Source of the DNA: an uncultured virus (IMG/VR IMGVR_UViG_3300003962_000201)
Taxonomy: Duplodnaviria; Heunggongvirae; Uroviricota; Caudoviricetes
Reading direction: 5' to 3' (one strand)
Virus record (IMG/VR): IMGVR_UViG_3300003962_000201
Length of the DNA: 20,000 bases
The notes under the pieces were generated by a model. The model did no database searches and was not told the DNA's origin. It worked only from the letters and a program-made list of their open reading frames with translations. The first letter of the stretch is position 1. Every line of letters begins with the position of its first letter. Shown in pieces: positions 1 to 20,000 of this stretch. The position numbers were made by a program, and so were the translations under genes.

Positions 1-510
1 TCTTCTTTGAAGAAATTATTTCAAACATTTTTAAACTCTGGAAAGCTGGATTATGAAGATGCCGACTCGCTGGAATACGGCGGAAGTCCGGGAACTTATG
101 CAAACATGGAGGCAGGGAATTTTGATGACCTTTCGCCAGACATTAAAGCAATCATTATCGGGTTTATCTTAAAGACCCCAATAAGGATTTTGAAAGGCCT
201 TGTTGAAATTTCCGACCCGAACATTTTTATCGCTTCCAAGATTGCGCTCGCCGCCCGGCTCGCGTGCAAGCCTTTGCCTGTGGCCGTTCCTAGCCTCGCT
301 CTTTTGCCCTCAAATGTATTTCCGCCGCCGCCGCTAGGGCCTGGAATTGGACCGCCTATAAGCCCTCTGGGGTTTGCTTATCTCGCGATTGATGCTTTTG
401 ATAGTATCCCAATACCCGGATGTGAAGAACCCGAAGAAAGCGATAATTATGATAAACCTTCACAAGATGAAGTTAGGAGAAAGTTTTGCGATGAAAACGG
501 GGGAAGTTAA
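1..510 (+). CDS. C-terminal part of a hypothetical phage protein with a Pro-rich segment (5'-truncated by the window)
   Basis: Frame 1 is open from base 1 (TCT TCT TTG...), so the TTG at 7 is probably not the true start. The stop TAA at 508-510 directly abuts the next ATG at 511. Contains PSNVFPPPPLGPGIGPPISPLG. Confidence 0.7.
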   Translation, partial: SSLKKLFQTFLNSGKLDYEDADSLEYGGSPGTYANMEAGNFDDLSPDIKAIIIGFILKTPIRILKGLVEISDPNIFIASKIALAARLACKPLPVAVPSLALLPSNVFPPPPLGPGIGPPISPLGFAYLAIDAFDSIPIPGCEEPEESDNYDKPSQDEVRRKFCDENGGS

Positions 511-891
511 ATGTCGGGAATAGCTCCAAAATTGCCTTTAAGATTTTCCACCGATGGGGGTTTCGCCCAGACGCAGACGCTCAAAGAAACAATTCAGCAA
601 AACTTTAAAAATCTTCTTTTAACCTCTCAGGGCGAGCGGGTGATGGACATCAATTTCGGCGTGGGCCTTCGCGCCCTTCTCTTCGAAAACGACAGCGTTG
701 CTACTCGAAATAATGTTGTTGCTAAAATAAAACAACAAGCGGGAATTTACATGCCGTTTCTCAACATAGCGGCTGTCAAATTCTTTACAAATTTAGAAAA
801 CTCCTTGCTGGAAGCGAACGAAATAAACATTCAGGTTTTTTATTTCATCATTCCTCTTGAAAGCAACGATTTTATTTCAATAAATTTGTAA
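511..891 (+). CDS. Baseplate wedge subunit, T4 gp25 / GPW_gp25-like (sheath-initiator type)
   Basis: 126 aa with the family-typical motif 'IQQNFKNLLLTSQGERVMDINFGVGLRALLFE' (LLxT..GER.m.p.FG..l..lLFE). It lies directly upstream of a gp6/J-like gene. Confidence 0.9.
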   Translation: MSGIAPKLPLRFSTDGGFAQTQTLKETIQQNFKNLLLTSQGERVMDINFGVGLRALLFENDSVATRNNVVAKIKQQAGIYMPFLNIAAVKFFTNLENSLLEANEINIQVFYFIIPLESNDFISINL

Positions 892-895
892 ATTC

Positions 896-901
896 TAATT
901 A
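896..901 (+). promoter_or_regulatory. TAATTA motif 9 nt upstream of ATG 911 (candidate late promoter or translation signal)
   Basis: Lies in the 19-nt intergenic gap. The same hexamer precedes the starts at 2746, 13043 and 17578. Confidence 0.35.
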
Positions 902-910
902 ATAGTTAAA

Positions 911-2716
911 ATGTCTAACAATAAGCGTTCTCCCACCATAATACGATACACTTCACGAGATTTTGAAAGCATTAAGCAAGATTTGGTGGAATACGCCAAG
1001 AGAAACTATCCAGACTCCTACAAAGACAATAGCGAAGCCGGGTTCGGTGCGATGATGCTTGATGCTGTTTCAATAATCGGCGACCAATTATCTTATTACC
1101 TTGATTATTCCGTTAATGAAAGCACTATGGAGACCGCCGCGGAATACAATAACATCTTGAAATTAGCCAAGTTTTTGGGATACAAATACAAAGGTGTTCC
1201 AACTTCACAAGGAATTCAAACATTTTACTTGATAATTCCTGCGAATACAATAGGAAATGCTCCGGACAGAAATTATTTACCAATCTTAAAAAAAGGAAGT
1301 GAAATTGCTTCTCTAAACGGGAATGGTTTTATTGTTAATGAAGATGTTGATTTTTCTAACATAAATAATGAAATTGTTGTTGCGAGAGTTGATGATAATA
1401 CAGGAACTCCAACAGCTTACGCTGTTAAATCATTCGGCCAAATAATTTCTGGAAAACTAATTGAAGAATTGGTTGAAGTTGGTGAATTTAAAAAATTCTT
1501 AAAATTAGAGTTAGGGTCGGCAAACATTGCGGAGATTATTTCAATTCACGATGAAGAAGGAAACGAATACTTTGAGGTTGAAAATTTAACACAAGATACG
1601 ATTTATAGACCAATCGCAAATCGCGATGCGACAACGAACATTTATTCTAAATCAATTTTAAGACCATTTTTGGTTCCAAGAAGATTTGTTGTTGAACGAG
1701 AATTAAATAAGACATTTATTCAATTTGGCTTTGGCGGAGAACAAAACTCCTCTGTTTCTCAAATAATAGACCCATCAAGAGCAATTTTAAAAGAATACGG
1801 AAAAGATTACATAAGCAATACCTCTTTTGACCCAGGTAAGCTCCTTGAAACAGATGCTATGGGAATTGCCCCAGCAAATACAACATTAAGAGTTGTCTAT
1901 CGGGTGAACACGCAAAGTCAAGTCAACGCTTCTGTTAATTCCGTAACACAAATAACAAATCCTATTTTTGAGTTTTCTAACATCTCTTCTTTGGACGCAA
2001 ATCAAGTTGCTTCTGTTATTAATTCCCTGGAAACAAATAATGACGAAACAATCATAGGGGATACAACACCAATAACCACAGATGAATTAAAAATTCAAGC
2101 GTACGGAACATTTAGTTCCCAAAATAGAGCGGTTACTCTCCAAGATTACAAAACCTATGTTTATTCTATGCCGGGCGAGTTCGGTTCAATTAAAAGAGTA
2201 AATGTTATTCAGGATAAAAACTCCTTCAAGAGAAATCTTAATTTTTATGTTATAAGCGAAGATAGTTCCGGAAAACTTGTAACAACAAATGATACAATTA
2301 AGCAAAACTTAAAAATTTGGCTTGAAAATGGAAAAATGATAAATGATACGATAGACATTCTTGATGCTGTCATCGTCAATTATGGAATTGAGTACCAAGT
2401 TATTGGAGATTTAAACATAAACAAATTTAACATTTTATCATCCTGCAACCAAGCCATTCGGGATTATCTTCAAATCCTTCCTGAAATTGGTGAAAACTTT
2501 TTCATAAGCGAGATTTTTAAAATCTTGAATGATGTTGATGGAGTTGTTGATGTTGTCGGTGTTAAAATTGTTCCAAAGACCGGTGGTGTTTATTCTTCTG
2601 CCACATTTGATTTTGAGAAAGAAACGGTTTCTAACGGAAGATTTGTTAAAGTTCCCAAGAACGTCGTGGTTGAGTGCAAATACCCGAAAAATGACATTAA
2701 GGGTTCTGTAAGATAA
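911..2716 (+). CDS. Baseplate wedge subunit, T4 gp6 / baseplate-J-like
   Basis: 601 aa. N-terminal 'YTSRDFESIKQDLVEYAKRNYPDSYKD..EAGFGAMMLD..SIIGDQLSYYLD', then 'LAKFLGYK', and C-terminal 'QNRAVTLQDY', all typical of gp6/J-like wedge proteins. Adjacent to the gp25-like gene. Confidence 0.9.
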   Translation: MSNNKRSPTIIRYTSRDFESIKQDLVEYAKRNYPDSYKDNSEAGFGAMMLDAVSIIGDQLSYYLDYSVNESTMETAAEYNNILKLAKFLGYKYKGVPTSQGIQTFYLIIPANTIGNAPDRNYLPILKKGSEIASLNGNGFIVNEDVDFSNINNEIVVARVDDNTGTPTAYAVKSFGQIISGKLIEELVEVGEFKKFLKLELGSANIAEIISIHDEEGNEYFEVENLTQDTIYRPIANRDATTNIYSKSILRPFLVPRRFVVERELNKTFIQFGFGGEQNSSVSQIIDPSRAILKEYGKDYISNTSFDPGKLLETDAMGIAPANTTLRVVYRVNTQSQVNASVNSVTQITNPIFEFSNISSLDANQVASVINSLETNNDETIIGDTTPITTDELKIQAYGTFSSQNRAVTLQDYKTYVYSMPGEFGSIKRVNVIQDKNSFKRNLNFYVISEDSSGKLVTTNDTIKQNLKIWLENGKMINDTIDILDAVIVNYGIEYQVIGDLNINKFNILSSCNQAIRDYLQILPEIGENFFISEIFKILNDVDGVVDVVGVKIVPKTGGVYSSATFDFEKETVSNGRFVKVPKNVVVECKYPKNDIKGSVR

Positions 2717-2730
2717 TTTGTTAAAGTTCA

Positions 2731-2736
2731 TAATTA
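2731..2736 (+). promoter_or_regulatory. TAATTA motif 9 nt upstream of ATG 2746
   Basis: Lies in the 29-nt intergenic gap, with the same spacing as the motif before 911. No Shine-Dalgarno site is visible. Confidence 0.35.
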
Positions 2737-2745
2737 CATTAACAA

Positions 2746-4185
2746 ATGACGATTTTTAGATTATCAGCCTCAAAAGATAATTCAATAACAAACGCTTATT
2801 CTTATAATTTAACAACCCGAATGACCGGAGCAAATAACGGTGCCGCGGATGTTAATGAAGTTTTTAGCATTTTCGGGCAAGCATCGTCATCTTCACAGGA
2901 GATTTCACGGGCTCTTTACCAATTTCCTATTGATACATTCTCAACCCGCCGATCTCTTGGTCTTCTTCCTGTTTCTGGTTCTGTTTCGTTTTTCTTGAAA
3001 CTCTCCAACGCGAGACACGGAGAAACTTTACCAACTCAATTTACCTTAGTTGTTAATCCTTTATCTTCCTCTTGGGATGAAGGCGGAGGTCTTGATTTAG
3101 AAAATGGAAAAGACCTCTCTCCTGTTGGTCAATTTGGCTCAAACTGGATTTATCGCTCTTCTGGTTCTTTATGGACCTCTCAAGGAGGAGATTTCTTAAC
3201 TTCCTCGGTTTATTCGCAATACTTTGAAAATGGTGATGAAAACCTGTCCATCGACATAACACCTTTGGTTGAAGAGTGGATTTCGGGAACAACTCCTAAT
3301 AACGGCTTGATTGTCCGCCTTTCAGGAACACAAGAGAGCGGCTCAAATCAATCATTTTATACCAAGCGTTTCTTTTCGCGAGGCTCGGAATTTTTCTATG
3401 AAAGACCTTGGATAGAGGCGAGATACAACGACAACATCTATGATAATAGAAATAATTTCGCAGCCTCTTCAACGCTCGCAACAGCGCAAGAAAATTTGAA
3501 TGTTCTTTATTTTTACAATTATGTCCGTGGAGCGTTGCGAAACATTCCGGCAGTCGGGACAAGTTCTGTTTATGTCTCTTTCTGGACTTCCGCGTCAGCG
3601 GGAACACAACTTTTAACAGCGCCAACAACTCCAATAACGGGCGGGTGGCTTTCAACTGGAATTTACACAGCTTCGGTTGCTTTGGATACAACCTCTTCGG
3701 TTGTTTATGATAGATGGTTTTATTCTTCAACCTCCGGTGAAGTTTATTTTCATACTGGAACAATTTATCCTGTTTCAATAAAAGAAAATCTCCCAGATAC
3801 TGAATTTATTATAAACATTAAAAATTTGAAAAAAGTCTATAATACAACCGAAAAATCTCGCTTGAAATTATTTGTTCGTCAAAAAAATTGGAGACCGACA
3901 ATCTATTACAAAGCAACCGAAACAGCAAAGAATTTGATTTTATCAAGTTCTTATTACAAGATTTTCCGTGCTGTTGATGGTTTTGAGGTCATACCTTACG
4001 GAACAGGCTCAAATGAACATACAAGATTGTCTTTTAATGGAGATGGTAATTATTTTGACTTGGATTTCAATTTATTTGAGCCGGGATACATGTATTCTAT
4101 TAAAATTCTTGTTAAAAACAGAGATAATGAATACTTGGAGCAAAAAGAAACATTTAATTTCAGGGTAGAAAATAATGTCAATTAA
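2746..4185 (+). CDS. Putative virion structural protein with an N-terminal DNRLRE/CBM96-like beta-sandwich domain
   Basis: 479 aa. The pattern 'SRALYQF...SSWDEG...NW......W...GGDF...IDITPLVEEWISG..PNNGLIVR...FFSRGSE...RPWIEARY' resembles DNRLRE-type domains. Sits within the baseplate cluster. Confidence 0.6.
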   Translation: MTIFRLSASKDNSITNAYSYNLTTRMTGANNGAADVNEVFSIFGQASSSSQEISRALYQFPIDTFSTRRSLGLLPVSGSVSFFLKLSNARHGETLPTQFTLVVNPLSSSWDEGGGLDLENGKDLSPVGQFGSNWIYRSSGSLWTSQGGDFLTSSVYSQYFENGDENLSIDITPLVEEWISGTTPNNGLIVRLSGTQESGSNQSFYTKRFFSRGSEFFYERPWIEARYNDNIYDNRNNFAASSTLATAQENLNVLYFYNYVRGALRNIPAVGTSSVYVSFWTSASAGTQLLTAPTTPITGGWLSTGIYTASVALDTTSSVVYDRWFYSSTSGEVYFHTGTIYPVSIKENLPDTEFIINIKNLKKVYNTTEKSRLKLFVRQKNWRPTIYYKATETAKNLILSSSYYKIFRAVDGFEVIPYGTGSNEHTRLSFNGDGNYFDLDFNLFEPGYMYSIKILVKNRDNEYLEQKETFNFRVENNVN

Positions 4186-7100
4186 GAACCTGTTCAACAA
4201 AAACGACATTCTTCAAATTCTTCCTGCGACAACCGAAGAAGAAATTTCTCGCGAAATTGAAAGCGAAGGATACATAAGTTCCTTTATTGAAGAACAAAAT
4301 AAGTTTCTCCCAAGAGTAGACCTATCAAATCCGGCCAATTTTGCTCGTTGGGGTTCTGCGGAGCAATACTATCTCGACAGTATCGAGTACATCGCTGAAA
4401 CTTATCCTTATGATGGATCTTTAAAAGAAAAAGTAAATTGGTCTTTAAGTTCTTCTTATCTTGATTTGTACCTCTTTGAAAATGAATACCCAAGAGTAAA
4501 TGGTTATGTTAATCTTGGATTAAACTATGGAACGCAAGTTTCGTCAAGCTCCAATTATTCTCTTGTTGATAATTTATCCTACATTTTCTTAAAAGGCGGC
4601 CCAAATTCCGCCTCGGCCGGAATGGAGGGAAAACCTCTTGCGGAAACCTTTAATTTATCAAATTATTATAGCACCGCCTCAAATAGAGAAAATAATCTTG
4701 AAATAGACCCGAATGCCGGAATAACAATTGAATTTTGGATGAATAAAGTTTCAGCCTCGGTCGGTTCTGGGAAACAGGTTATTTTTGATTTGTGGAATTC
4801 TCGTTCTTATGCCGACACAAATTACGGAAGAATTCGTCTTGAAATTAGACCACAAATTACCGGAAGCCAAAATCAATTCTTTCTCGAAATTCGTTCCGGA
4901 AGTTCCGGCCTTTCAGCTCAACGAGCAGATACGACAATTCCAATCGGCAACAACCTTTTAATCACCGGAAGCGATTGGAAACAGTATTCTTTGACCGTAA
5001 AAAATTCCGGAAGCCAAATGGTCGCGGAACTTTGGACTTCTGGCGTTCTTAATGATACAATCATAACAGGGTCTTCAATCGGGGCCATAACCGGCTCTAT
5101 GATTGCGACCATAGGTTCTCTCATAACATCTGTTTCGGGCGCCAACGGCGGATTAGGGTGGGGCAAACTCTCTGCTTCTCTTGATGAATTTAGATTTTGG
5201 AAAGTTAAACGAAACGCCGAGCAGATTGGTCGTTATTGGTTTACCCAAGTCGGCGGTGGAACAAATACCGATTTAGCAAATACTAATTTAGGAATTTATT
5301 ACAAATTTAACGAAGGTGTTTGGAATAGCTCCTCAATTGATTACGCTGACGCGAAAATTCTTGACTATTCCGGTCGCATCTCTAATGGAAATCTTGTCGG
5401 GTATTCTCTTGGTATGCGTTCAACATCTTCCGCTATGGTTCTTGCTGGTGCAACCGAAAGAGAATTCCAAGACCCAATAATTTATTTATCTCACCCAAGG
5501 GTTCAAGAATTTCTTTCGGCAAAGCAAGAAATAGGATTTAACCACGATGTTTCAGGGTCATCAAATCTTTATTTTATGTTCCCTGCTTGGATTAGAGAAG
5601 AAGACGAGAAAGACAACGCTTTTGTTCTTAAAAAGTTTTCTCAAATTATCGGCAAATCTTTTGATGACCTCCATCTCCAAATTGAGAGTTTCTCAAAGAT
5701 AAAGCACCCGGATTATACAGAAACAACCGAACGGCCTTACAATTTTACAAGCAGACTTGTCAATTCAACAGGATTGTTTGTTCCTGAACTTTTTACGCAA
5801 GCGGAGGCTCTTGAGGCTCTTGCGAACCGAAGTGAAATTGAAGAGTTTGAGAATAAACTTTACGAAATTAAAAGCAGAATTTATGAAAACATTTATAATA
5901 ATTTGTCTTTCATAAACAAATCAAAAGGAACAGAAAAATCTTTTAGAAATTTGTTTCACGCATTTGGAGTTGATGATGATTTATTGAAAGTTAATCTCTA
6001 TGTTGATGGAGAAACTTACAAATTTGAAAATAATTTAAAATTTGGCGTTGCCCGTAAAAAATTTGCCGATTTCAACAATCCCGATAGATTTGATGCGACA
6101 ATTTATCAATTTACATCAAGCCAAACCAATAGTCGTTCATTTATCTCAAATCTTTCTGGAACAAGATTTAACGGAGAGACATACGAAATTGAGTGCCTCT
6201 TTCCAAAGAAATTTGAAAGAGACAGCGAACTTTACTTTGAGACAACCTTTTTGTCTTCTTCCATCTTTGGAGGACACACGGCAAATACAGGAACAACCCA
6301 AAACAATTTGGGTTGGAACTCTCCCGACATTTTCAATTTCCAAGTCTACTCTGTTCGCGAAAGCCAAGAGAGTAAAAATGTTTATTTCCAACTAACTGGA
6401 ACTTCCGGAGGGTCTGTTCCAAATCTAACTTCTTCTGTTTTCAAAGATGTTTATGATAATTCCAAGTGGAATTTGTTTGTTAGAATTAAACCAAATGGGT
6501 ATCCTTACGCTTCAGCGACTTCTGGCTCAATTTCAACTTACACAATAGAATTTATTGGAAAAAATTATGTTCTTGATGTTCTCGTTAATTCTTTCGCGGT
6601 TTCCTCAACAATTCCTTCATCATTTTTGAGCGGCGCTCGAAGAATGTATGCCGGCGCTCATAGACAAAATTTCACAGGCACCGTTATTGATAGAACAGAT
6701 GTTAAAATTTCTAATCTTCGGTATTGGGTCTCCGCTTTGGAAGATGAAGTTCTTGATTTGCACGCAAAAGATGCTTTTAATTATGGAACAATAAACCCTA
6801 TTCAAAACGCTTATTTGAGCGACAGAAACCTTTTTGGAAACGACATTCAGCAAATTCCATACGGACAAACTCTTGCTTTGTACTGGGATTTTTCAAGCGT
6901 TTCTTCTTCCGGACCATCAAGCGACGGAAACCCAACAACTTATGATGCGACCTTTGAGGTTGCAGATTTATCTTCTGGTTCGGCGGAGTTAAGACAGTCT
7001 TTACCAGCAATTAGAGATGCTGTCAATTATTTTTATCCAGGTATCGGTGGATTTTATCCTCCAAACGATACAAACGCAATTAATCAGGAATACCTCCAAA

Positions 7101-12457: not shown

Positions 12458-13043
12458 TTTATTATTCTTATTTTTAATAAATTGTTCATGTGATGGAGTG
12501 ATTCAAGAAGACCAAGGGTTCTTTAGCAAGAACAGTAAAACTTTTGAACAATCTGGGTGTGAAAGAATAACTATTGATAAAGAATTAAAACAAGTAAAGG
12601 TTTCTATTCAATCAGCCGAGGAAGTTGAAATTTGTACGAGAGAAGCAATAGAATTTTGGAACCGAGAGGTTGAAGGATTAAATCTTGTTTTTACGGGTTA
12701 TTATGATTTTGATAAAATTGAAGATTACAACTTTATCGCTGTTAGACAAGAAAATGAAATACCTAATAAAGAAGATGATTTTTTTACTCGGTATTTAGGA
12801 AGCATGTTTTCTTATCCAACCCTAGATTGTGTCTTCAAGTACATCTCTATCGTTGTTGTACCTCAAGACATAAATTCTATGTGCGACACTATGAAGCACG
12901 AAGTAGGGCACGCATTAGGGTTAGACCATGATACGATAGAAGGCTCGATAATGACCCAGCAAAGATACAGAGAGTGTGAAAATGATGAATGTTTCATAAC
13001 GAACAAGGATTTATTATTGTTGAATAATTATTTCAAGCAATAA
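12438..13043 (+). CDS. Metzincin zinc metalloprotease (matrixin / peptidase M10-like), probably exported or lipid-anchored
   Basis: HEVGHALGLDH (HExxHxxGxxH) at 12897-12929, followed by the Met-turn-like 'SIM' at 12945-12953. 'REAIEFWN' matches the 'A...W' helix of matrixins. Hydrophobic N-terminus ending in Cys (MENLKVSLLFLFLINCSC). Confidence 0.85.
   Translation: MENLKVSLLFLFLINCSCDGVIQEDQGFFSKNSKTFEQSGCERITIDKELKQVKVSIQSAEEVEICTREAIEFWNREVEGLNLVFTGYYDFDKIEDYNFIAVRQENEIPNKEDDFFTRYLGSMFSYPTLDCVFKYISIVVVPQDINSMCDTMKHEVGHALGLDHDTIEGSIMTQQRYRECENDECFITNKDLLLLNNYFKQ
13025..13030 (+). promoter_or_regulatory. TAATTA motif 12 nt upstream of ATG 13043, inside the 3' end of the protease gene
   Basis: Same hexamer as before the starts at 911, 2746 and 17578. 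Confidence 0.25.
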
Positions 13044-14029
13044 TGAAATTTCTTGATGAAAAAGAACAAGTTTTAGACATCCAATTAACTTCTTTTGGAA
13101 AACATCTTTTATCAAAAGGTTTATTTAAGCCTTGTTATTATGAATTTTTTGATGATGATGTAATCTATGATTATCAATCCACAGGTTTTATAAGCGAAAG
13201 CCAAAACAGCATTCAGGATAGAATTTTTGAGACGCCGCGCCTGGAGACCCAAACAAATTACGGCGGGATAGAAAGACAGATTTTAGAAAAAATTAAATTT
13301 GTTAGAGATAATGTTGTTCTTGAAGACCAGCAGGGCGTTTCAATCCAGAATGAAATTGATAGGAATTTATCCCTAAAATCCCCAATTGGTTCAATAAAAT
13401 TGGAAAGCACCAACGCTCCAGCGTGGAACATAAATGTTTTAAATGGCGAATTAACAAGCTCTTTAACTTATCTTTCCGGCACAAACGCAATAATAAAAAT
13501 ACCACAACTTAACTGCAAAGATGTCCTCTTCAAGCGGCAAGTAAAAACAGGTATGCCCGTCTCCAACAACATTTTAAGAGAGATGGAAAATGCCGAAGCA
13601 GGAAATGATACAGGTCTTTTAAGCGTTGTCTTTCCTGACGGGTCCTATTTGGATGTTGATGAAGACTTCTTGCTTTTAAAAGTTGAAGAATTAAACATAG
13701 AAGATGACGGCGAGAACTTTGAGATGGAAATCTATGAAATCCTTTCAGGAAATCTTGAAAACGAAGAAAAACTTGTTCCATTATTTTTTTACGAAAAGCC
13801 GTATGTAATTCAGGATGATTTGCTCGTTATGGAAAATGAAGCGAGAACACCAGAAATAAATAAAAACTTTATCAATTATTACTTAAACATAAAGACGGAT
13901 GCTGATTTACCAAATGAAATCATTTGTTCTCTTCCAAAAGAAGATAGACCTTTTGATGTTGTTTGTTTGGATAATCAACCAACAAATACTTTGTATGACG
14001 AAGAGACTGACCCAGAGGAGAAATGCTAA
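13043..14029 (+). CDS. Hypothetical acidic phage protein, probably structural (baseplate-associated)
   Basis: 328-aa ORF coupled to the upstream gene by a TAATG overlap. N-terminus 'KEQVLDIQLTSFGKHLLSKGLFKPCYYEFFDDDVIYD'. No domain confidently recognised. Confidence 0.75.
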   Translation: MKFLDEKEQVLDIQLTSFGKHLLSKGLFKPCYYEFFDDDVIYDYQSTGFISESQNSIQDRIFETPRLETQTNYGGIERQILEKIKFVRDNVVLEDQQGVSIQNEIDRNLSLKSPIGSIKLESTNAPAWNINVLNGELTSSLTYLSGTNAIIKIPQLNCKDVLFKRQVKTGMPVSNNILREMENAEAGNDTGLLSVVFPDGSYLDVDEDFLLLKVEELNIEDDGENFEMEIYEILSGNLENEEKLVPLFFYEKPYVIQDDLLVMENEARTPEINKNFINYYLNIKTDADLPNEIICSLPKEDRPFDVVCLDNQPTNTLYDEETDPEEKC

Positions 14030-17000
14030 TGAATAACGAATTATTTGGGTCTTTTATTCCTGATGTCTATTTTTCTAAAATAACTCTTGAAACCTCCGCT
14101 GGCTCTGCTTTTGTTTCCTTGGCCCCTGTCGATTCCGGCGTGAGCCTCGTTAAACAAAGAATTGATAAAAATAAAGTCGCAAGCATAGCATCCGCTTTTG
14201 ATAAGAACTCTCTTGATAAAGACGAAGCCCCATCGTTTTGTAAAATAACTTTAGATTTGGTTGCGAAAGATACTCTAAAAAAAGATTACATCTTGAATTG
14301 GATGGAGCAGAATAACTTTACCAAATTCCTAAAATTTGTTGTCGTTCAGCTGGAAAATAAAGAAACAATTGATTTTGTTGAAAAAAACGGCATCCTAGCT
14401 CTTGAAAAGATTAATCCAGATGAAAGGCATAAATACAGATTTTCTAAAAAAATCTTAAAAGTTCCGCAAGATGTTGTCGGCGGCGGCGATGCGGTTAAAC
14501 AACAAGAAGATGTCTTTAATGATAAAGGAGAGAAAATAATTAACATTCCTTTTAGAACTTCATTTTTAATTCAAAAAGACCCACAAGATTTATGTTATTT
14601 TTCTTACTCTTTTATAGACATAAATGAAATTTCAAGAGAATTTGGATTTTCTAACGAAAATGTTGGCGACAACTTGTTTTACGGAAACTTAATAAGAGAA
14701 AATGTTATTTCTTTGGGCCTTCTAAATAATCAATCTTATGTCTTTCTTGATAAGGATAATAATCCTTGGTTTGGTCCTGTTTTTGAAAGGGGCGGAAAAT
14801 TCTATCAAGAACAACAATTCATTAATGAATTAAAGAGGTTTTCGTTTGAGAATAATAAAATTCAAGATTTTAGAAAAGTTTCGCGAATTGATAGATTGTT
14901 GCTTGATTTCTCAATAGCCAACAATTTAAGACTTAATTCAAAGTTAGATAAGACATTCTCACAAAAGATAATTGTTAAAGAAGGGAAATCTTATTTTTCT
15001 AATCTTTGTTTGTCGCAAGACCAAGACGGAAACATTAGATTTTTCTTTGGATTTGACGCAAGAAGATTTCTACAAGATAATTCTCTTTACGGAAAATTGT
15101 TTTTAAATGGAAAACAATTTGAAGAGGCTGTTCGGCGGTCTTTCATTCAATCTATAAAAATTTATAGAAAACGAATTGCTGGTTCTGCCGAAGCGGGAAG
15201 CGAACCAAGAAGAGAATACCTTTTTGACGAAAATCAACCTCCTTATGTTATTGTTGAAAGCAAAGATGTTTTAGGCAATTTTAATACCTTAACAACAATA
15301 AACAATAAAAAAAGTTCTCTTAAAGAAATACCATCTCTTTTTGTTGAAGACCCAAATTCGGTCGGTATAAGGTATTTTACAGGAGCAGACAAAACCGTAA
15401 AAAACAATACGGACGGGTATTATCAGTATTCCGCTGAATTATCTTTTATGGACGGCTCGGTTGTTGTTCTCGCGAATAAATTAAATCAATTAAAACAAAG
15501 CAAGGCTCAATTAAACTCGTATTATGTCCTTTCATCTAAACCAGAGAATTTTGATGTTAATTTGAATAGATTTACAAATGCTTTTTATTCCAAGATGAGA
15601 GTTAAATACGGGCTTGGAAATGATAATGCGCCTTGGTTCAAAGCGGTAGATGACTATCTTGACTTTATTAACATAACAAGTGAACTTAACCGAATTGAAG
15701 AGGAAGAGTTGAGAAAGCAATTGTACATCTATAATCACCCGAGAACTGGAAACCCTAACGGGATACAGACAACAATTTCTTTAATAGATAATCTAATAAA
15801 TAAATTAGAAAAAGCCTTGAAATTATTTAATCAAGCAACCAATTTAGGATACATCCCAAACGGAGATGTTAAAGAAAGTTCTGTTTATTTTAAGCAATCA
15901 AATAATTCCAAAAATCTAACAACAGAAAAAACTTTTTTTGAAATTGTTAATACATCAAAATTAACAAAAGATGGATACGAAGTCCTTGATGTTGATACTC
16001 CCGATGATGTTTCTGGATTAAAATTAATAACTGGTCAAGATTACAATCGACGAGTTGAGAGAGAAATTGATGTTCTTTTTGAAAGAAAAGACGGGATTAA
16101 ACCGAACATAAATTTAGAAGTTGGCGGAGAAAGATACACAGAAAACGACAGCATAGATACGACAAGTTATTCTTATTTAGGGTTTTCTTACGCTCTTGAG
16201 AGAGGCATTAAAAGTTTATCGCGTGTCGGCAATTCTCCCGGACCTTCACAGCCGAGCGACAGTTTTGTTAATTTTTCTGTTTCTTCTAAAAAATCAAACA
16301 ATTCTTTAAATGTATCCAAAAATAATACTCCCATAGGTGTTCCGGAAGGAACATCTCTATCGAGAGAGCAGATTTTTACAACGACAAACATAGAGAAGTT
16401 TTCTGCCGAATTAGGTTTAAATGTTATAAAAGAGGTTGTCCGGGCGCCTTCCATAGTTGGAAGACCAAACTTACCACGATTTACGGCGGTTAGGGATAGT
16501 TCTCCGGTCGATGAATTGGTTCATGAAGAAGTTTATTGTTTTAATAGACAATCTTTTGATGATGCCTTTGACGCTTCGCCGGTTTTGTTAAATCTTGTTG
16601 AGAAAATTTCTCCCTCCCCTAACAATAGATTTAGAGTTGGAAACTCGGCCGGAAACTCTGTTTTTGCCGATAAAAGAGAAAGAATAAGAACAACAGACAT
16701 AAAGATGTATGATTTAACAAATAAAATAAATTATGTTAAAGAACTTGTCGCAAATCCTGAAAATGTTAAAAGCGAATTATTTTTTAGAGGAAGACCGCAC
16801 AATACAACTCTTAATGACGCTTTGAGACAATTACCGAACCACACAAAAGCGATGTTCTTATCTTATACAAAACCCGAGGTCGTCAAGACAAATTGGAGCA
16901 AAGAGCTAGGGCAAAACGGAAATCAAATTCCAGGACAAAAAACTAAATTTGATTTGTTCCAAAACTTTTTACAGACGATAGAGGTTTTTACAGGATTTAA

Positions 17001-17568
17001 GACAGACGAAAAAACGAAGGAACCTTTAATAAAAGAGGAAAGCTGGATGCCTCTAACTCTTGAAATGTATAATAAAATTTTCAGCAAGACCTTGCTATGT
17101 CGTATGAGAACTTATAAAAATGAGTTCGTTGGCGTCATTCCGGAAGAAACCCTTGAAAAACCAATTTTTCACCAATACTTCTTGGTTTTATCTCAACCAA
17201 GACCGCAATTAACTCTTCCTCCTCCTATAACCCTCATTAGACCGGAAGTTCTTCCTTCAAGACCTTCCTTGACGGGTCTTCTCAACACCGCCGGCATAAC
17301 CCCCGAGACAACCAGTTCAACGGGCGTTGGACCTTCCGCTGGTGTTGGAACAGGCGCTCCAAGACTTAACCAGGCTCCTCCGCCCGGCGAATTGGTCTTC
17401 GAACCTGAAGGTGTCGCAACCGGGGAACAGCAAAGATGCTCCAATTTATTAAATGATGCTCTTTTGGATACTATCCCTATTGAACAAACAACCACCAATG
17501 CTGGAGGTATTTATGAAAATTCATCTCTTCAAGGCGGGACAAGAACCTTAAATCTTATCGGGTCTTAA
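14023..17568 (+). CDS. Large hypothetical phage protein (~1180 aa) with a Pro/Thr/Gly-rich C-terminal tail
   Basis: Long ORF with codon usage like its neighbours. The true start may be ATG 14029, which forms a TAATG overlap with the upstream stop and has GAGGAG at 14015-14020, 8 nt upstream. Confidence 0.8.
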   Translation: MLMNNELFGSFIPDVYFSKITLETSAGSAFVSLAPVDSGVSLVKQRIDKNKVASIASAFDKNSLDKDEAPSFCKITLDLVAKDTLKKDYILNWMEQNNFTKFLKFVVVQLENKETIDFVEKNGILALEKINPDERHKYRFSKKILKVPQDVVGGGDAVKQQEDVFNDKGEKIINIPFRTSFLIQKDPQDLCYFSYSFIDINEISREFGFSNENVGDNLFYGNLIRENVISLGLLNNQSYVFLDKDNNPWFGPVFERGGKFYQEQQFINELKRFSFENNKIQDFRKVSRIDRLLLDFSIANNLRLNSKLDKTFSQKIIVKEGKSYFSNLCLSQDQDGNIRFFFGFDARRFLQDNSLYGKLFLNGKQFEEAVRRSFIQSIKIYRKRIAGSAEAGSEPRREYLFDENQPPYVIVESKDVLGNFNTLTTINNKKSSLKEIPSLFVEDPNSVGIRYFTGADKTVKNNTDGYYQYSAELSFMDGSVVVLANKLNQLKQSKAQLNSYYVLSSKPENFDVNLNRFTNAFYSKMRVKYGLGNDNAPWFKAVDDYLDFINITSELNRIEEEELRKQLYIYNHPRTGNPNGIQTTISLIDNLINKLEKALKLFNQATNLGYIPNGDVKESSVYFKQSNNSKNLTTEKTFFEIVNTSKLTKDGYEVLDVDTPDDVSGLKLITGQDYNRRVEREIDVLFERKDGIKPNINLEVGGERYTENDSIDTTSYSYLGFSYALERGIKSLSRVGNSPGPSQPSDSFVNFSVSSKKSNNSLNVSKNNTPIGVPEGTSLSREQIFTTTNIEKFSAELGLNVIKEVVRAPSIVGRPNLPRFTAVRDSSPVDELVHEEVYCFNRQSFDDAFDASPVLLNLVEKISPSPNNRFRVGNSAGNSVFADKRERIRTTDIKMYDLTNKINYVKELVANPENVKSELFFRGRPHNTTLNDALRQLPNHTKAMFLSYTKPEVVKTNWSKELGQNGNQIPGQKTKFDLFQNFLQTIEVFTGFKTDEKTKEPLIKEESWMPLTLEMYNKIFSKTLLCRMRTYKNEFVGVIPEETLEKPIFHQYFLVLSQPRPQLTLPPPITLIRPEVLPSRPSLTGLLNTAGITPETTSSTGVGPSAGVGTGAPRLNQAPPPGELVFEPEGVATGEQQRCSNLLNDALLDTIPIEQTTTNAGGIYENSSLQGGTRTLNLIGS

Positions 17569-17571
17569 TTA
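17566..17571 (+). promoter_or_regulatory. TAATTA motif 6 nt upstream of ATG 17578, overlapping the preceding stop codon
   Basis: Same hexamer. Its TAA is the stop codon of the upstream gene, which weakens its independence. Confidence 0.25.
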
Positions 17572-17577
17572 TAAAAA

Positions 17578-20000
17578 ATGGCTAATGAAATTAAAATAAA
17601 AGATAAATCATCTGTTATTGCTTTATCAAAGAAAAGAATTATTGTTGAAAACGAGATTTACAACGAAACGCCATTTTCCGCAGGAATAACGGGAGCCCCC
17701 GGGATTGCAGATAATTTGAGAGGCCGACTTGATGCTTTTTGGAACAAAGGAAAGTTCCAAGGTGTAAGTATCATAAAGCCGGTCATTATCCAGTATCAAC
17801 CGGCGGCAACCATTTCATCATCTTCATTCGGGGAGTTCGAGCAAAAATTTAAATTAACAGCAAATTCCGCATTTTACAGAGATTTAAAGGATTTGTATTG
17901 GAAATCTTTTATTTCCAAAGATTTTTTGGTTGGAAATACGAATACAAGAAATACAAAACTTCTTCAAGATGTTGTTCAAATTTTAAAGACATTTGCGAAC
18001 GGAGAAGTCCTAACAAATAAAGATTTACAGGTTGTAAGTCTTGCTGGTGAAGAGGTTAAAGGGGTTTTGACTGAAACGGAGACTTTAACGCTAAATAACA
18101 TTTTAAGAGGCAACCAAACAGGAAACATAAGAGAAGGAACATTAAGATTAATAGGAACTCTTGAAAGAGAAAGTCTTAAACCTCAATTTCCTCCGGCGGT
18201 TTCCATCGAGCAACCTCCGCAAGTTCTTATTGTTAATGAGGTTCCTCGCGAGGTCGCCCCAAGAGGCCCTATCGAAATCCCTGTTGATTCCACCTTCAAG
18301 GTTAATCAGGTCTTTACCGACCACGCTTGCGATGCTCCGGCGGCGTATTCAAAAGAAGAAATCTCAAATCTTAAAATAACCATCGGCGGCTTGTTCGCGG
18401 ATGTTTTAACAAATTATAATTTCTTTATTGAGCCCTATGAACGGATGCTTGACGATGCAACCATCCCCGAAACACTCCTGCCTTCGTTATACGCCTTTGG
18501 AACGGAAAGGGAACCCGAGTACCTCGACGACCACGATACGATAATGGAGGCCCACCTAACGCTTTATAATGCCATTCCTGATGTTTTTGTTGATGCCGTC
18601 AATTCTCGTGGAGAAAAAATAGGAGAAACAGATAAAGGAGAATACTTTGATAAATTCTCTTATCACTTTAATGAATTTCAACAAAACAATAGACAGGGTT
18701 TTGATACATTATCATCAAGATTTACGAATTTGGTTGTTGGAACAAACAATTTTAAGACATCGCAAGATTATAATAACATCAAATTTGTTATGCCGATGTA
18801 TAACGAAATAACATTTAAGACCGATGTTAGAACCGAAATAGCAACCGCATTAAATCAATCAAAATTATCATCACAATTGATTGTTGATACGATTGAAAAT
18901 AAAATGGGCTCCTCGCAAAAACTCTTCGCGGTGATGACGCAAGATAGAAGAGACCCTGATAATTCTAGAATAGACAGCGTCATCAATTATAAAACGGAAC
19001 AAGAATTAAAGATTTGGAATTTTGACGATTGGATTGAAAATTACTTTCAAAGGCCAAACACCTTCTCCAACCTTAATTCAATTGTTTTCGTTGGGAAAAG
19101 ACAAGATGACGATAAAATGACTTATGATACATCTTATCGGTTCCTGAAAAACATTTCTTTTATCATTCTTAAAGGCGTTATTAAAACTTATGTTAAAAAT
19201 AAAATGCGAACCTTTGAAGAAATGATGAAAGGTAAGAAGGCACACACGGAAACTTTATTTTATAGAGTTGATAAAATTGATAAAAGAACCGGAAATCTTA
19301 TTCAAAGTTTCTTTTTGGCGAATTCTAACGAGGTTGATACGGCGACTTTCGTGGATAGTCAAGTCAAATACGGAAAAGAATACGATTATAAAATTTATCT
19401 TATCAACATCGTTGTTGGAACAGAATACCAATACGAAGTTTTAAGCGTTTCAAATACCGATGCGGAAGTCAAAGCGATTTACAAACCTTCGGTCAAGATG
19501 ATAGAAATTCCGTTTTATCAAGAAACCATCAAAGTTTTTGATGCACCCCCGATAAGACCGGATGTTTCAATTTATCCTTATTATTCAACCAATAATAAAA
19601 TAAAATTTGTCTTAAATAATGGAATTGGAAGAGAAAAAGAGTTTCCTATCTTAATTCAGCCGCAGGACAACGCATCTTTTAGAGATGTTCGTATGGCTCA
19701 AAAGGTTTCAAGCGACAAGCCGATAGAATTTGAGAGTGACGACATTCCTTCGGCATTTCAAATTTTTAGGCTTGAAAGCGAGCCGATAAATTATCAAGAT
19801 TTCGCGGGAGCAACAATAAAAATAAAAGAAACAGATGTTGATAGAGAAAGCGCCTTGAAGGCTTCTTCAACCGCGATTATTGACGAAATTGAGCCAAATA
19901 AGAAGTATTATTACACATTCCGGACGGTTGATGTTCATGGAAAAATCTCAAACCCGACATCCGTTTTCCAAATTGAGATGATTGACGACCAAGGAACCAT
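17578..20000 (+). CDS. Large hypothetical protein (>=807 aa, 3'-truncated) with fibronectin type III-like motifs; absent from the supplied ORF track
   Basis: Manual translation from ATG 17578 (MANEIKIKDKSSVIALSKKRII...) has no stop before the window end. FN3-like strand patterns 'FVDSQVKYGKEYDYKIY' (19348-19398) and 'IIDEIEPNKKYYYTFRTVDVHGKISNP' (19876-19956). Confidence 0.85.
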   Translation, partial: MANEIKIKDKSSVIALSKKRIIVENEIYNETPFSAGITGAPGIADNLRGRLDAFWNKGKFQGVSIIKPVIIQYQPAATISSSSFGEFEQKFKLTANSAFYRDLKDLYWKSFISKDFLVGNTNTRNTKLLQDVVQILKTFANGEVLTNKDLQVVSLAGEEVKGVLTETETLTLNNILRGNQTGNIREGTLRLIGTLERESLKPQFPPAVSIEQPPQVLIVNEVPREVAPRGPIEIPVDSTFKVNQVFTDHACDAPAAYSKEEISNLKITIGGLFADVLTNYNFFIEPYERMLDDATIPETLLPSLYAFGTEREPEYLDDHDTIMEAHLTLYNAIPDVFVDAVNSRGEKIGETDKGEYFDKFSYHFNEFQQNNRQGFDTLSSRFTNLVVGTNNFKTSQDYNNIKFVMPMYNEITFKTDVRTEIATALNQSKLSSQLIVDTIENKMGSSQKLFAVMTQDRRDPDNSRIDSVINYKTEQELKIWNFDDWIENYFQRPNTFSNLNSIVFVGKRQDDDKMTYDTSYRFLKNISFIILKGVIKTYVKNKMRTFEEMMKGKKAHTETLFYRVDKIDKRTGNLIQSFFLANSNEVDTATFVDSQVKYGKEYDYKIYLINIVVGTEYQYEVLSVSNTDAEVKAIYKPSVKMIEIPFYQETIKVFDAPPIRPDVSIYPYYSTNNKIKFVLNNGIGREKEFPILIQPQDNASFRDVRMAQKVSSDKPIEFESDDIPSAFQIFRLESEPINYQDFAGATIKIKETDVDRESALKASSTAIIDEIEPNKKYYYTFRTVDVHGKISNPTSVFQIEMIDDQGT

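What the first reader, a model, noticed from the sequence alone, without database searches (positions are those of the whole stretch)
1..20000. Near-total avoidance of the palindrome ATAT in an AT-rich phage: possible footprint of an undescribed ATAT-targeting defence or modification system
Seen: a line-by-line manual scan found ATAT only once, at 9588-9591. If A and T are each about one third of bases, a back-of-envelope expectation is ~250 per 20 kb. The other A/T-only palindromes (AATT, TTAA, TATA) and the near neighbours ACAT, ATAC and ATGT are common, so this is not general A/T or RY-alternation avoidance. The avoidance works through synonymous choice in all three frames. Asn/Asp/Tyr/His before Ile/Met use the C-ending codon (AAC ATT, GAC ATT, TAC ATA, CAC ATT), although AAT, GAT and TAT are common elsewhere. 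Tyr after an A-ending codon is TAC (GAA TAC, AAA TAC, GGA TAC), and ATA is not followed by T. Established: phages purge palindromes recognised by host restriction systems. EcoRV (GATATC), SspI (AATATT) and NdeI (CATATG) have an ATAT core but cover only 3 of 16 flanking contexts, and I know of no characterised 4-cutter for ATAT. Inference: the host may encode a nuclease, DNA-modifying toxin or RM-like system specific for ATAT. Alternatively the phage may encode an ATAT-specific nuclease to degrade host DNA while sparing its own.
Basis: partly seen in the sequence, partly recalled or inferred. Interest (0 to 1): 0.88.

Follow-up and report, generated by a model that had tools for sequence, protein, structure and literature searches.

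The report
Phage DNA purged of ATAT
A wastewater phage has removed almost every copy of the four-letter word ATAT, and about fifteen other short palindromes, by silent codon changes, which points to a host DNA-cutting enzyme for ATAT of a specificity I could not find described.

Summary
ATAT occurs once in 20,000 bases (9588-9591). Expected counts are 196 from base composition, 115 from a trimer Markov model (z -15.4) and 127 from 500 synonymous codon shuffles (lowest shuffle 104).

- **How it is done:** the purge is entirely synonymous, in all three codon phases and all 16 flanking contexts.
- **Not an assembly artefact:** the same DNA turns up in public runs from 12 studies, labelled wastewater, sludge or bioreactor. 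Their contigs match ATAT-free stretches with 0-1 differences.
- **Not alone:** ATAT is the strongest of about 16 purged palindromes, including GATC, ACGT, GANTC, TCNGA and CTNAG. G+C-only palindromes, AATT and TTAA are untouched.
- **Lineage-specific:** 91 relatives' loci average obs/exp 1.03 (minimum 0.84). Two unrelated relatives are partly depleted (0.29 and 0.51).

The best reading is classical restriction-site avoidance driven by an ATAT-recognising, orthodox Type II-like enzyme in the host. Neither host nor enzyme was found. About 800 Bacteroidota genomes show no ATAT purge. Eight literature searches and one methylome supplement gave no ATAT-specific enzyme or methylation motif. This is a known phenomenon with a probably new target.

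The parts
1..20000 (.). ATAT-purged stretch (1 site where 115-127 are expected), also purged of about 15 other short palindromes
9588..9591 (+). the only ATAT, formed by the codons GAT ATT (Asp-Ile); it is one C-to-T step from the GAC ATT form used in 71 of the 72 comparable places
1..510 (+). ORF open at the 5' end, 169 aa, no family match
511..891 (+). gp25-like baseplate wedge protein (PF04965, E 2.8e-10)
911..2716 (+). gp6-like baseplate wedge protein, 601 aa; used to find relatives
2746..4185 (+). 479-aa structural-module ORF, no family match
4175..12457 (+). 2760-aa ORF, no family match; probably a tail fibre or baseplate-distal protein (inferred from position)
12438..13043 (+). 201-aa ORF with a matrixin-type (Peptidase_M10) match, E 2.1e-7
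13043..14029 (+). 328-aa ORF, no family match
14023..17568 (+). 1181-aa ORF, no family match and no usable Atlas hit
17578..19998 (+). ORF open at the 3' end, 807 aa, no family match

Best explanation
This is restriction-site avoidance. The phage is a roughly 200-kb-class myovirus found in wastewater, sludge and bioreactor metagenomes. It replicates in hosts that carry a DNA endonuclease recognising the palindrome ATAT in any flanking context. That enzyme is most likely the nuclease of an orthodox Type II restriction-modification system, whose partner methylase protects the host.

Every ATAT in incoming unmethylated phage DNA is a potential double-strand cut. Variants that lost sites by silent codon changes were therefore favoured, until almost none remained. 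The same process, driven by other enzymes in the host population, removed GATC, ACGT, GANTC, TCNGA, CTNAG and about ten further palindromes.

Shown: the purge, its synonymous nature, its specificity to contiguous ATAT, its lineage specificity, and its reproducibility in independent sequencing data. Inferred: that the agent is a nuclease, that it is host-encoded, and that it belongs to an R-M system.
For: 1. Size of the depletion: 1 observed against 114.5 (trimer Markov, z -15.4) and 126.6 +/- 8.2 (500 codon shuffles, minimum 104).
2. It is purely synonymous, seen in all three codon phases and all 16 flanks.
3. 323 single synonymous substitutions in the window would create an ATAT, yet only one site exists. 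Mutation keeps offering sites, so removal must be ongoing.
4. It is specific to the contiguous word: AT|AT is 0.01 at gap 0 and 0.86-1.18 at gaps 1-6.
5. All the most depleted words are palindromes or interrupted palindromes (obs/exp): GATC 0.06, TCNGA 0.05, ACGT 0.07, CTNAG 0.10, GANTC 0.12, CANTG 0.16, TGNCA 0.21, CTNNAG 0.21, GTNNAC 0.24. Each is specific to its gap. This is the signature of dimeric enzymes that read double-stranded DNA.
6. Relatives with the same baseplate genes are not depleted: 91 loci have mean obs/exp 1.03, sd 0.08, minimum 0.84. Many of them purge other palindromes instead (GGCC most often, also GATC, AGCT, CCGG, CGCG, GCGC, CTAG, GTAC, TGCA), so site avoidance is a family habit tuned to each host.
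7. Two other relatives are partly ATAT-depleted: L048 24 against 81.5, L065 50 against 97.6. This holds over their whole contigs (7 against 19 and 11 against 28 for WWATATWW against WWTATAWW). On the gp6 tree the three ATAT-poor phages are not clustered: 3 changes, the same as the shuffled labels.
8. Rusinov et al. 2018 (PMC6286503, passages read) report that near-elimination of sites in phage genomes is seen essentially only for orthodox Type II systems.
9. Independent data agree. 20 of the 24 listed runs, from 12 studies, hold the stretch or part of it. In one search, 16 listed contig pieces from four runs cover about 6.4 kb of the window with 0-1 differences each (8 differences in all), where about 40 ATAT would be expected if the window's lack of sites were an error.
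Against: - No host was identified, and no enzyme, methylase or methylation motif for ATAT was found.
- By my recall, no ATAT-specific restriction enzyme is characterised, so the explanation postulates an unseen enzyme.
- In about 800 Bacteroidota genomes, the count of WWATATWW relative to the tool's reversed control WWTATAWW was never below about 0.64 where the control count was 100 or more (read by eye). If the host is in that sample, its own genome is not purged. Methylated hosts need not be purged, and the host phylum is itself only a weak guess.
- The window is one-stranded coding DNA with almost no intergenic sequence. It cannot separate a DNA-level from an RNA-level agent on its own.
- Only 20 kb of an estimated 200-kb genome was seen.
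Confidence: 0.62

Rival explanations
1. Self-avoidance. The phage encodes an ATAT-cutting nuclease elsewhere in its genome, uses it to degrade host DNA, and spares its own DNA by having no sites.
For: The purge would look the same under this reading. Earlier notes of this scan (unchecked AI notes) describe giant viruses that lack GATC and carry Sau3AI/MutH-type cutters. The depletion is stronger than for any other word.
Against: None of the 9 ORFs in the window matches a nuclease or methylase family, though the window is only the tail module. This reading does not explain the roughly 15 other purged palindromes, which would each need their own enzyme. The three ATAT-poor phages are not a clade, so a vertically inherited phage gene is not indicated.
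Confidence: 0.1
2. Several host enzymes with longer or degenerate sites that share an ATAT core (SspI AATATT, EcoRV GATATC, NdeI CATATG types, or degenerate forms such as WATATW or RATATY) together remove all contexts.
For: The palindromic hexamers are all empty: AATATT 0 against 23.1, CATATG 0 against 5.5, TATATA 0 against 6.6. The host population clearly fields many enzymes.
Against: All 16 NATATN contexts are empty, including the 12 non-palindromic ones (for example AATATA 0 against 11.1, TATATT 0 against 9.6, AATATG 0 against 9.8). Covering them needs many enzymes or one fully degenerate one, and the latter amounts to an ATAT enzyme.
Confidence: 0.1
3. RNA-level selection. A host endoribonuclease, for example a toxin of a toxin-antitoxin or abortive-infection system, cuts AUAU in phage transcripts.
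For: All genes in the window are on one strand and nearly all of it is transcribed. A palindrome reads the same in transcripts from either strand, so the window cannot exclude this reading.
Against: The target is a DNA palindrome (16 of 256 tetramers are), and it sits among about 15 other purged palindromes, including interrupted ones, that fit dimeric DNA enzymes. I recall no AUAU-specific RNase, and the searches found none.
Confidence: 0.06
4. A cause without a nuclease: DNA structure or flexibility of alternating AT, avoidance of spurious promoters, a mutational bias, or transposon target avoidance.
For: Dick et al. 2009 (PMC2745766, passage read) list ATAT and TATA among the palindromes generally under-represented in an acid-mine community. 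TA-containing words are mildly low here.
Against: The depletion is 99%, while TATA, AATT, TTAA and ATNAT are at 0.41, 1.21, 1.02 and 1.18. 91 relatives with similar genes and composition show none of it. Sigma-70-like and TAnnTTTG matches are at chance level.
Confidence: 0.05
5. Sequencing or assembly artefact, for example systematic miscalling of a modified ATAT motif.
For: Modified motifs are known (recalled) to cause systematic consensus errors in some long-read assemblies.
Against: 20 of the 24 listed runs, from 12 studies, hold the stretch or part of it. Contigs from four other runs match ATAT-free stretches with 0-1 differences. The replacements are synonymous in each of the three codon phases, which an error process that ignores the reading frame would not achieve.
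Confidence: 0.01

Closest known systems
Restriction-site (short palindrome) avoidance in phage genomes (Rusinov et al. 2018, PMC6286503, passages read; Sharp 1986 and Rocha et al. 2001, recalled)
   Same: Short palindromes are removed far below codon-aware expectation by silent changes. The purge is strongest in non-temperate dsDNA phages, is attributed to orthodox Type II R-M systems, and differs between related phages.
   Different: The top target, ATAT, matches no restriction enzyme or methylation motif that I could find or recall. The host and its R-M systems are unknown, so the site-to-enzyme link that defines the published cases is missing.
GATC-free Staphylococcus phage K and its relatives, against Sau3AI (recalled, not checked here)
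   Same: Near-total loss of a 4-bp palindrome across a large myovirus genome.
   Different: There the host enzyme is known. Here the word is A/T-only and the enzyme is hypothetical.
Six-base cutters with an ATAT core: SspI AATATT, EcoRV GATATC, NdeI CATATG (recalled)
   Same: They would select against ATAT in their own contexts; those hexamers are absent here.
   Different: They cover 3 of 16 contexts; here all 16 are purged.
ATAT/TATA under-representation in acid-mine-drainage community genomes (Dick et al. 2009, PMC2745766, passage read)
   Same: ATAT is named among the palindromes that occur less often than codon usage predicts, and it differs between related Thermoplasmatales.
   Different: That is a moderate, community-wide tendency in cellular genomes with no enzyme named. 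Here it is a 99% purge in one phage lineage.
Viruses that lack the site of a nuclease they carry themselves
   Same: Near-total synonymous loss of one 4-bp palindrome.
   Different: No nuclease gene is seen in this window, and the purge covers about 16 words.

Membership tests
Restriction-site avoidance driven by orthodox Type II R-M | The avoided word is a short (4-8 bp) palindrome or interrupted palindrome | tested here: met
   ATAT is its own reverse complement. The other strongly depleted words are also palindromes, each specific to its gap.
Restriction-site avoidance driven by orthodox Type II R-M | Depletion goes beyond base, trimer and codon composition | tested here: met
   1 observed against 196.1, 114.5 and 126.6 expected; the lowest of 500 codon shuffles was 104.
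Restriction-site avoidance driven by orthodox Type II R-M | Achieved by synonymous substitutions without loss of coding capacity | tested here: met
   Codon-context tables: 1 of 72, 0 of 42 and 0 of 116, against 69%, 77% and 36% elsewhere.
Restriction-site avoidance driven by orthodox Type II R-M | Specific to host or lineage, not shared by related phages | tested here: met
   91 relatives' loci: mean obs/exp 1.03, minimum 0.84. Only L048 (0.29) and L065 (0.51) are low, and they are not clustered with the window on the gp6 tree.
Restriction-site avoidance driven by orthodox Type II R-M | The host encodes an R-M system of that specificity | not testable with these tools
   The host is unknown. 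The window's contig is in none of the three collections and no genome is held for it. No ATAT specificity was found in the literature or in the Blow 2016 tables. REBASE is not available.
Restriction-site avoidance driven by orthodox Type II R-M | The host genome itself tends to under-represent the site | tested here: inconclusive
   None of about 800 sampled Bacteroidota genomes has WWATATWW/WWTATAWW below about 0.64 where the control count is 100 or more (read by eye). The host phylum is only guessed, and other phyla were not sampled.
Self-avoidance of a virus-encoded nuclease | A nuclease (with or without a methylase) of that specificity is encoded in the viral genome | not testable with these tools
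   Only 20 kb of tail-module genes are available. 0 of 9 ORFs match a nuclease or methylase family.
Assembly artefact at a modified motif | The motif reappears in independent sequencing data of the same DNA | tested here: not met
   Contigs of four other runs match the window over ATAT-free stretches with 0-1 differences each. 20 of the 24 listed runs, from 12 studies, hold the stretch or part of it.

The most novel reading that the evidence does not exclude
Wastewater bacteria carry a restriction endonuclease, with a partner methylase, whose full recognition site is ATAT. By my recall this is one of only two 4-bp palindromes (with TATA) for which no restriction enzyme has been characterised. 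It is common enough to have left marks in at least three separate phage lineages. The same phage's purge list also names further palindromes for which I recall no enzyme (CANTG, TGNCA, CTNNAG). If so, phage 'negative footprints' can serve as a catalogue of undiscovered restriction specificities.
Probability: 0.55. Interest if true: 0.6.

Novelty: new member of a known kind. Interest (0 to 1): 0.5.

Why it matters
Restriction-site avoidance is textbook biology. Here, however, the most strongly avoided word matches no enzyme or methylation motif that I could find in print.

- **A concrete lead.** An ATAT-specific cutter probably exists in wastewater bacteria. It would fill one of the last gaps among 4-bp palindromic specificities (a gap known to me by recall) and would be a useful frequent cutter for AT-rich DNA.
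- **Host assignment.** A purge list of about 16 words is a fingerprint of the host population's R-M arsenal. It could be matched against methylomes from long-read wastewater metagenomes to assign this phage to a host.
- **Limits.** Without the host or the enzyme, this remains an inference from sequence statistics.

Tried and rejected
- **Finding the contig.** An exact 42-base match in viral, metagenome and genome collections gave 0 hits each. Megablast against phage records gave no match. No whole genome is held. The rest of the phage genome could therefore not be examined.
- **Closer relatives.** The 1181-aa protein had none and the 479-aa protein had two at 40-45% identity. The nearest gp6 relative in 5.8 billion proteins is 58% identical.
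- **Population test.** Of 364 variant places in four runs only 40 were listed. None creates an ATAT, but only about 1.6 were expected, so the test has no power.
- **Host-genome survey.** I compared WWATATWW with the tool's control in 401 + 8 + 401 Bacteroidota genomes, a few of them shared between searches. None was purged. Other phyla were not sampled, and only Pseudomonadota and some high-GC phyla were reachable through handles.
- **Host clues.** 5 of 8 gene starts lack a Shine-Dalgarno motif. TAnnTTTG gave 29 matches against 23.3 expected, which is not significant. Sigma-70-like sites numbered 63 against 54 expected. These are weak hints of a Bacteroidota-like host at best.
- **Tree.** The ATAT-poor phages do not cluster. 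The first tree run did not finish.
- **Protein Atlas.** No usable hit for the 1181-aa protein.
- **Earlier notes of this scan.** Nothing on this genome or on ATAT avoidance.
- **Review of Type II enzymes.** A search of PMC4081073 for a statement on missing 4-bp specificities found no matching passage.
- **Joints.** Contigs that skip parts of the giant gene were laid at 80% likeness and may come from other organisms. They were not pursued.
Full report
**What the window is.** All nine ORFs of 80 aa or more lie on the + strand and are almost contiguous. Two are recognisable: a gp25-like baseplate wedge protein (511-891; PF04965, E 2.8e-10) and a gp6-like wedge protein (911-2716; PHROG baseplate wedge families). 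One 201-aa ORF has a matrixin-type peptidase match. The rest match nothing, including a 2760-aa ORF. This is the baseplate and tail-fibre module of a myovirus. The nearest relative with a complete record is a 201-kb viral contig (56% gp6 identity). The nearest cultured phages are Microcystis phage Mel-JY01 (32%) and Flavobacterium phage immuto (30%). The gp6 family is very large: 3924 proteins at E <= 0.001 among the 8000 scored, and the nearest non-self protein is 58% identical.

**The observation.** ATAT occurs once, at 9588-9591, as the codons GAT ATT. With A 6624, T 5980, G 3744 and C 3652, base composition predicts 196 sites. The trimer Markov model predicts 114.5 (z -15.4, the lowest of all 256 tetramers). 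In 500 within-gene synonymous codon shuffles the mean was 126.6 +/- 8.2 and no shuffle fell below 104.

- Asn/Asp/His/Tyr codons end in T in 818 of 1180 cases in general, but in 1 of 72 before an AT-starting codon.
- Tyr is TAT in 196 of 253 cases in general, but in 0 of 42 after an A-ending codon.
- Ile is ATA in 134 of 374 cases in general, but in 0 of 116 before a T-starting codon.

All three codon phases are emptied (expected 28.5, 45.6 and 51.2; observed 0, 1 and 0). So are all 16 flanking contexts, apart from the single GATATT. Separated half-sites are normal: AT-N1..6-AT is 0.86-1.18 of expectation. In the window, 323 different single synonymous substitutions would create an ATAT. The near-absence of sites therefore has to be maintained against mutation.

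**Not an artefact.** Of the 24 public runs listed, 20 hold the first 10 kb of the window or part of it, and these come from 12 studies. Twelve runs hold at least half of the sampled words. The labels are bioreactor, wastewater, sludge, activated-sludge, riverine or aquatic metagenome. Contigs from four of these runs were laid on the window. Sixteen listed pieces, about 6.4 kb in total, match with 0-1 differences each. About 40 ATAT would be expected in that length if the window's lack of sites were an error. An error process would also not be synonymous in every codon phase.

**ATAT is the extreme member of a set.** The codon-shuffle null was applied to all 2+2 and 3+3 palindromes with gaps. 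Observed against expected counts are:

| Word | Observed | Expected |
|---|---|---|
| ATAT | 1 | 124.5 |
| GATC | 4 | 65 |
| TCNGA | 3 | 55 |
| ACGT | 3 | 46 |
| CTNAG | 4 | 41 |
| GANTC | 8 | 68 |
| CANTG | 8 | 50 |
| TGNCA | 13 | 63 |
| CTNNAG | 15 | 72.5 |
| GTNNAC | 11 | 47 |
| AGCT | 20 | 57 |
| TCGA | 28 | 73 |
| CTAG | 8 | 31 |
| GTAC | 10 | 26.5 |
| TGCA | 18 | 41 |
| GTTAAC | 0 | 10.5 |

Each is specific to its spacing, and the same half-sites are at about 1.0 for gaps of three or more. AATT (1.21), TTAA (1.02) and the four G+C-only palindromes (0.74-1.67) are not purged. TA..TA words are low at most spacings (0.41-0.97), so the 0.41 for TATA looks like a general TpA effect. By my recall, not by any search, GATC, ACGT, GANTC, TCNGA, CTNAG, GTNNAC, AGCT, TCGA, CTAG, GTAC and TGCA are all sites of characterised Type II enzymes. 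I recall none for ATAT, CANTG, TGNCA or CTNNAG.

**Relatives.** I collected loci around gp6 homologues from viral, metagenome and genome collections. Counting the window, 98 sequences are 4 kb or longer, and L001 and L005 are identical. 94 of the 98 have an expected ATAT count of 20 or more.
- Leaving out the window, L048 and L065, the other 91 have obs/exp of 1.03 +/- 0.08, ranging from 0.84 to 1.20.
- L048 (24 against 81.5, z -9.0) and L065 (50 against 97.6, z -6.6) are partly depleted. The depletion is even along the locus, independent of context, and holds over their whole contigs.
- On a FastTree gp6 tree of 93 rows the three ATAT-poor phages need three changes, the same as the shuffled labels. 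The window's sisters L022 and L023, and L065's sister L060, are not depleted.
- Many relatives have purged other palindromes: GGCC in at least twelve loci, and GATC, AGCT, CCGG, CGCG, GCGC, CTAG, GTAC or TGCA in others.

Site avoidance is therefore usual in this phage family. It changes quickly, and it follows something other than phage ancestry, which is what host-imposed restriction predicts.

**Mechanism.** The simplest reading is classical restriction avoidance. Rusinov et al. 2018 (PMC6286503; passages read) report that elimination of sites in phage genomes is essentially confined to orthodox Type II systems and is commoner in non-temperate phages. Applied here, the host or host population carries an enzyme that cuts unmethylated ATAT in any context. 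A 200-kb genome would otherwise carry more than a thousand such sites. This step is inferred: no nuclease was seen.

The rivals fare as follows.
- **A phage-encoded ATAT nuclease.** This cannot be tested on a tail module. It does not explain the other fifteen words or the scattered phylogenetic pattern.
- **Several longer-site enzymes.** They would have to cover all 16 contexts.
- **An AUAU-specific RNase.** The window cannot exclude it, but it is disfavoured because the word is a DNA palindrome among palindromes.
- **Structural or promoter causes.** They do not fit a 99% loss beside normal AATT, TTAA and ATNAT.

**Host.** The host is not identified.
- Five of eight gene starts lack a Shine-Dalgarno motif and have A-rich leaders, a weak hint of a Bacteroidota-like host. 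The Bacteroidota-type promoter box is not enriched.
- I counted WWATATWW against the tool's reversed control WWTATAWW (0 against 13 in the window) in Bacteroidota. The sample was 401 genomes drawn across the phylum, 8 of one order and 401 of a second order.
- Reading the tables by eye, no genome with a control count of 100 or more had a ratio below about 0.64.
- This does not exclude a methylated host, and other phyla were not sampled.

**Is an ATAT enzyme known?** I could not query REBASE.
- Eight full-text searches found no ATAT-specific restriction enzyme or methylation motif.
- The motif and methylase tables of Blow et al. 2016 (PMC4752239, supplements searched) contain GATC, GANTC, TTAA, AATT and CTNAG but neither ATAT nor TATA.
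- The only related statement found is in Dick et al. 2009 (PMC2745766, passage read). ATAT and TATA are among the palindromes under-represented in acid-mine community genomes, and they differ between related Thermoplasmatales.
- Supplements of bioRxiv methylome preprints such as Nanomotif could not be opened and might list such a motif.

**Verdict.** The phenomenon is a known kind, restriction-site avoidance. This scan has already found broad palindrome purges in other viruses, though none involving ATAT. What is new is the target word, and with it the inference that an ATAT-recognising defence nuclease exists in wastewater bacteria.

Noticed in passing
window 1-20000: Besides ATAT, three purged interrupted palindromes have no enzyme that I can recall: CANTG (8 against 50 expected), TGNCA (13 against 63) and CTNNAG (15 against 72.5). 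Each is specific to its spacing.
   Followed up: partly
window 1-20000: Some palindromes are over-represented against the codon-shuffle null: CCGG 80 against 48.7, AATT 334 against 277, TCGCGA 10 against 2.5. Possibly sites protected by methylation, or codon-pair effects. Not explained.
   Followed up: no
window 4175-12457: A 2760-aa ORF with no Pfam or PHROG match sits in the tail module. Contigs of other runs, laid at 80% likeness, skip parts of it (for example 10171 to 10727, 10780 to 12203 and 4488 to 13665). This may mean modular variation between strains, or contigs from other organisms.
   Followed up: no
window 12438-13043: A 201-aa ORF among the tail genes has a matrixin-type zinc peptidase match (PF00413, E 2.1e-7).
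   Followed up: no
L048 (1-12428) and L065 (1-21812): Two unrelated members of the same phage family are partly ATAT-depleted (0.29 and 0.51 of expectation; whole contigs 7 against 19 and 11 against 28 relative to the control). L065 also lacks GATC, CCGG, CGCG and GGCC completely.
   Followed up: partly
L007 (Microcystis phage Mel-JY01, record 143500-185353), L006, L060: Relatives show their own complete purges. Mel-JY01: GATC 0 against 83 and CTAG 0 against 36. L006: GTAC 0 against 10 and GGCC 2 against 27. L060: AGCT 0 against 35, GATC 0 against 66 and CGCG 0 against 18. GGCC is the most often purged word in the family.
   Followed up: partly
L010-L016: Phage contigs of this family are binned into metagenome-assembled genomes labelled Gammaproteobacteria, Legionellales, Parvibaculum, Actinomycetes, Gemmatimonadota and Flavobacteriales. 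These are probably binning by composition, not evidence of hosts.
   Followed up: no
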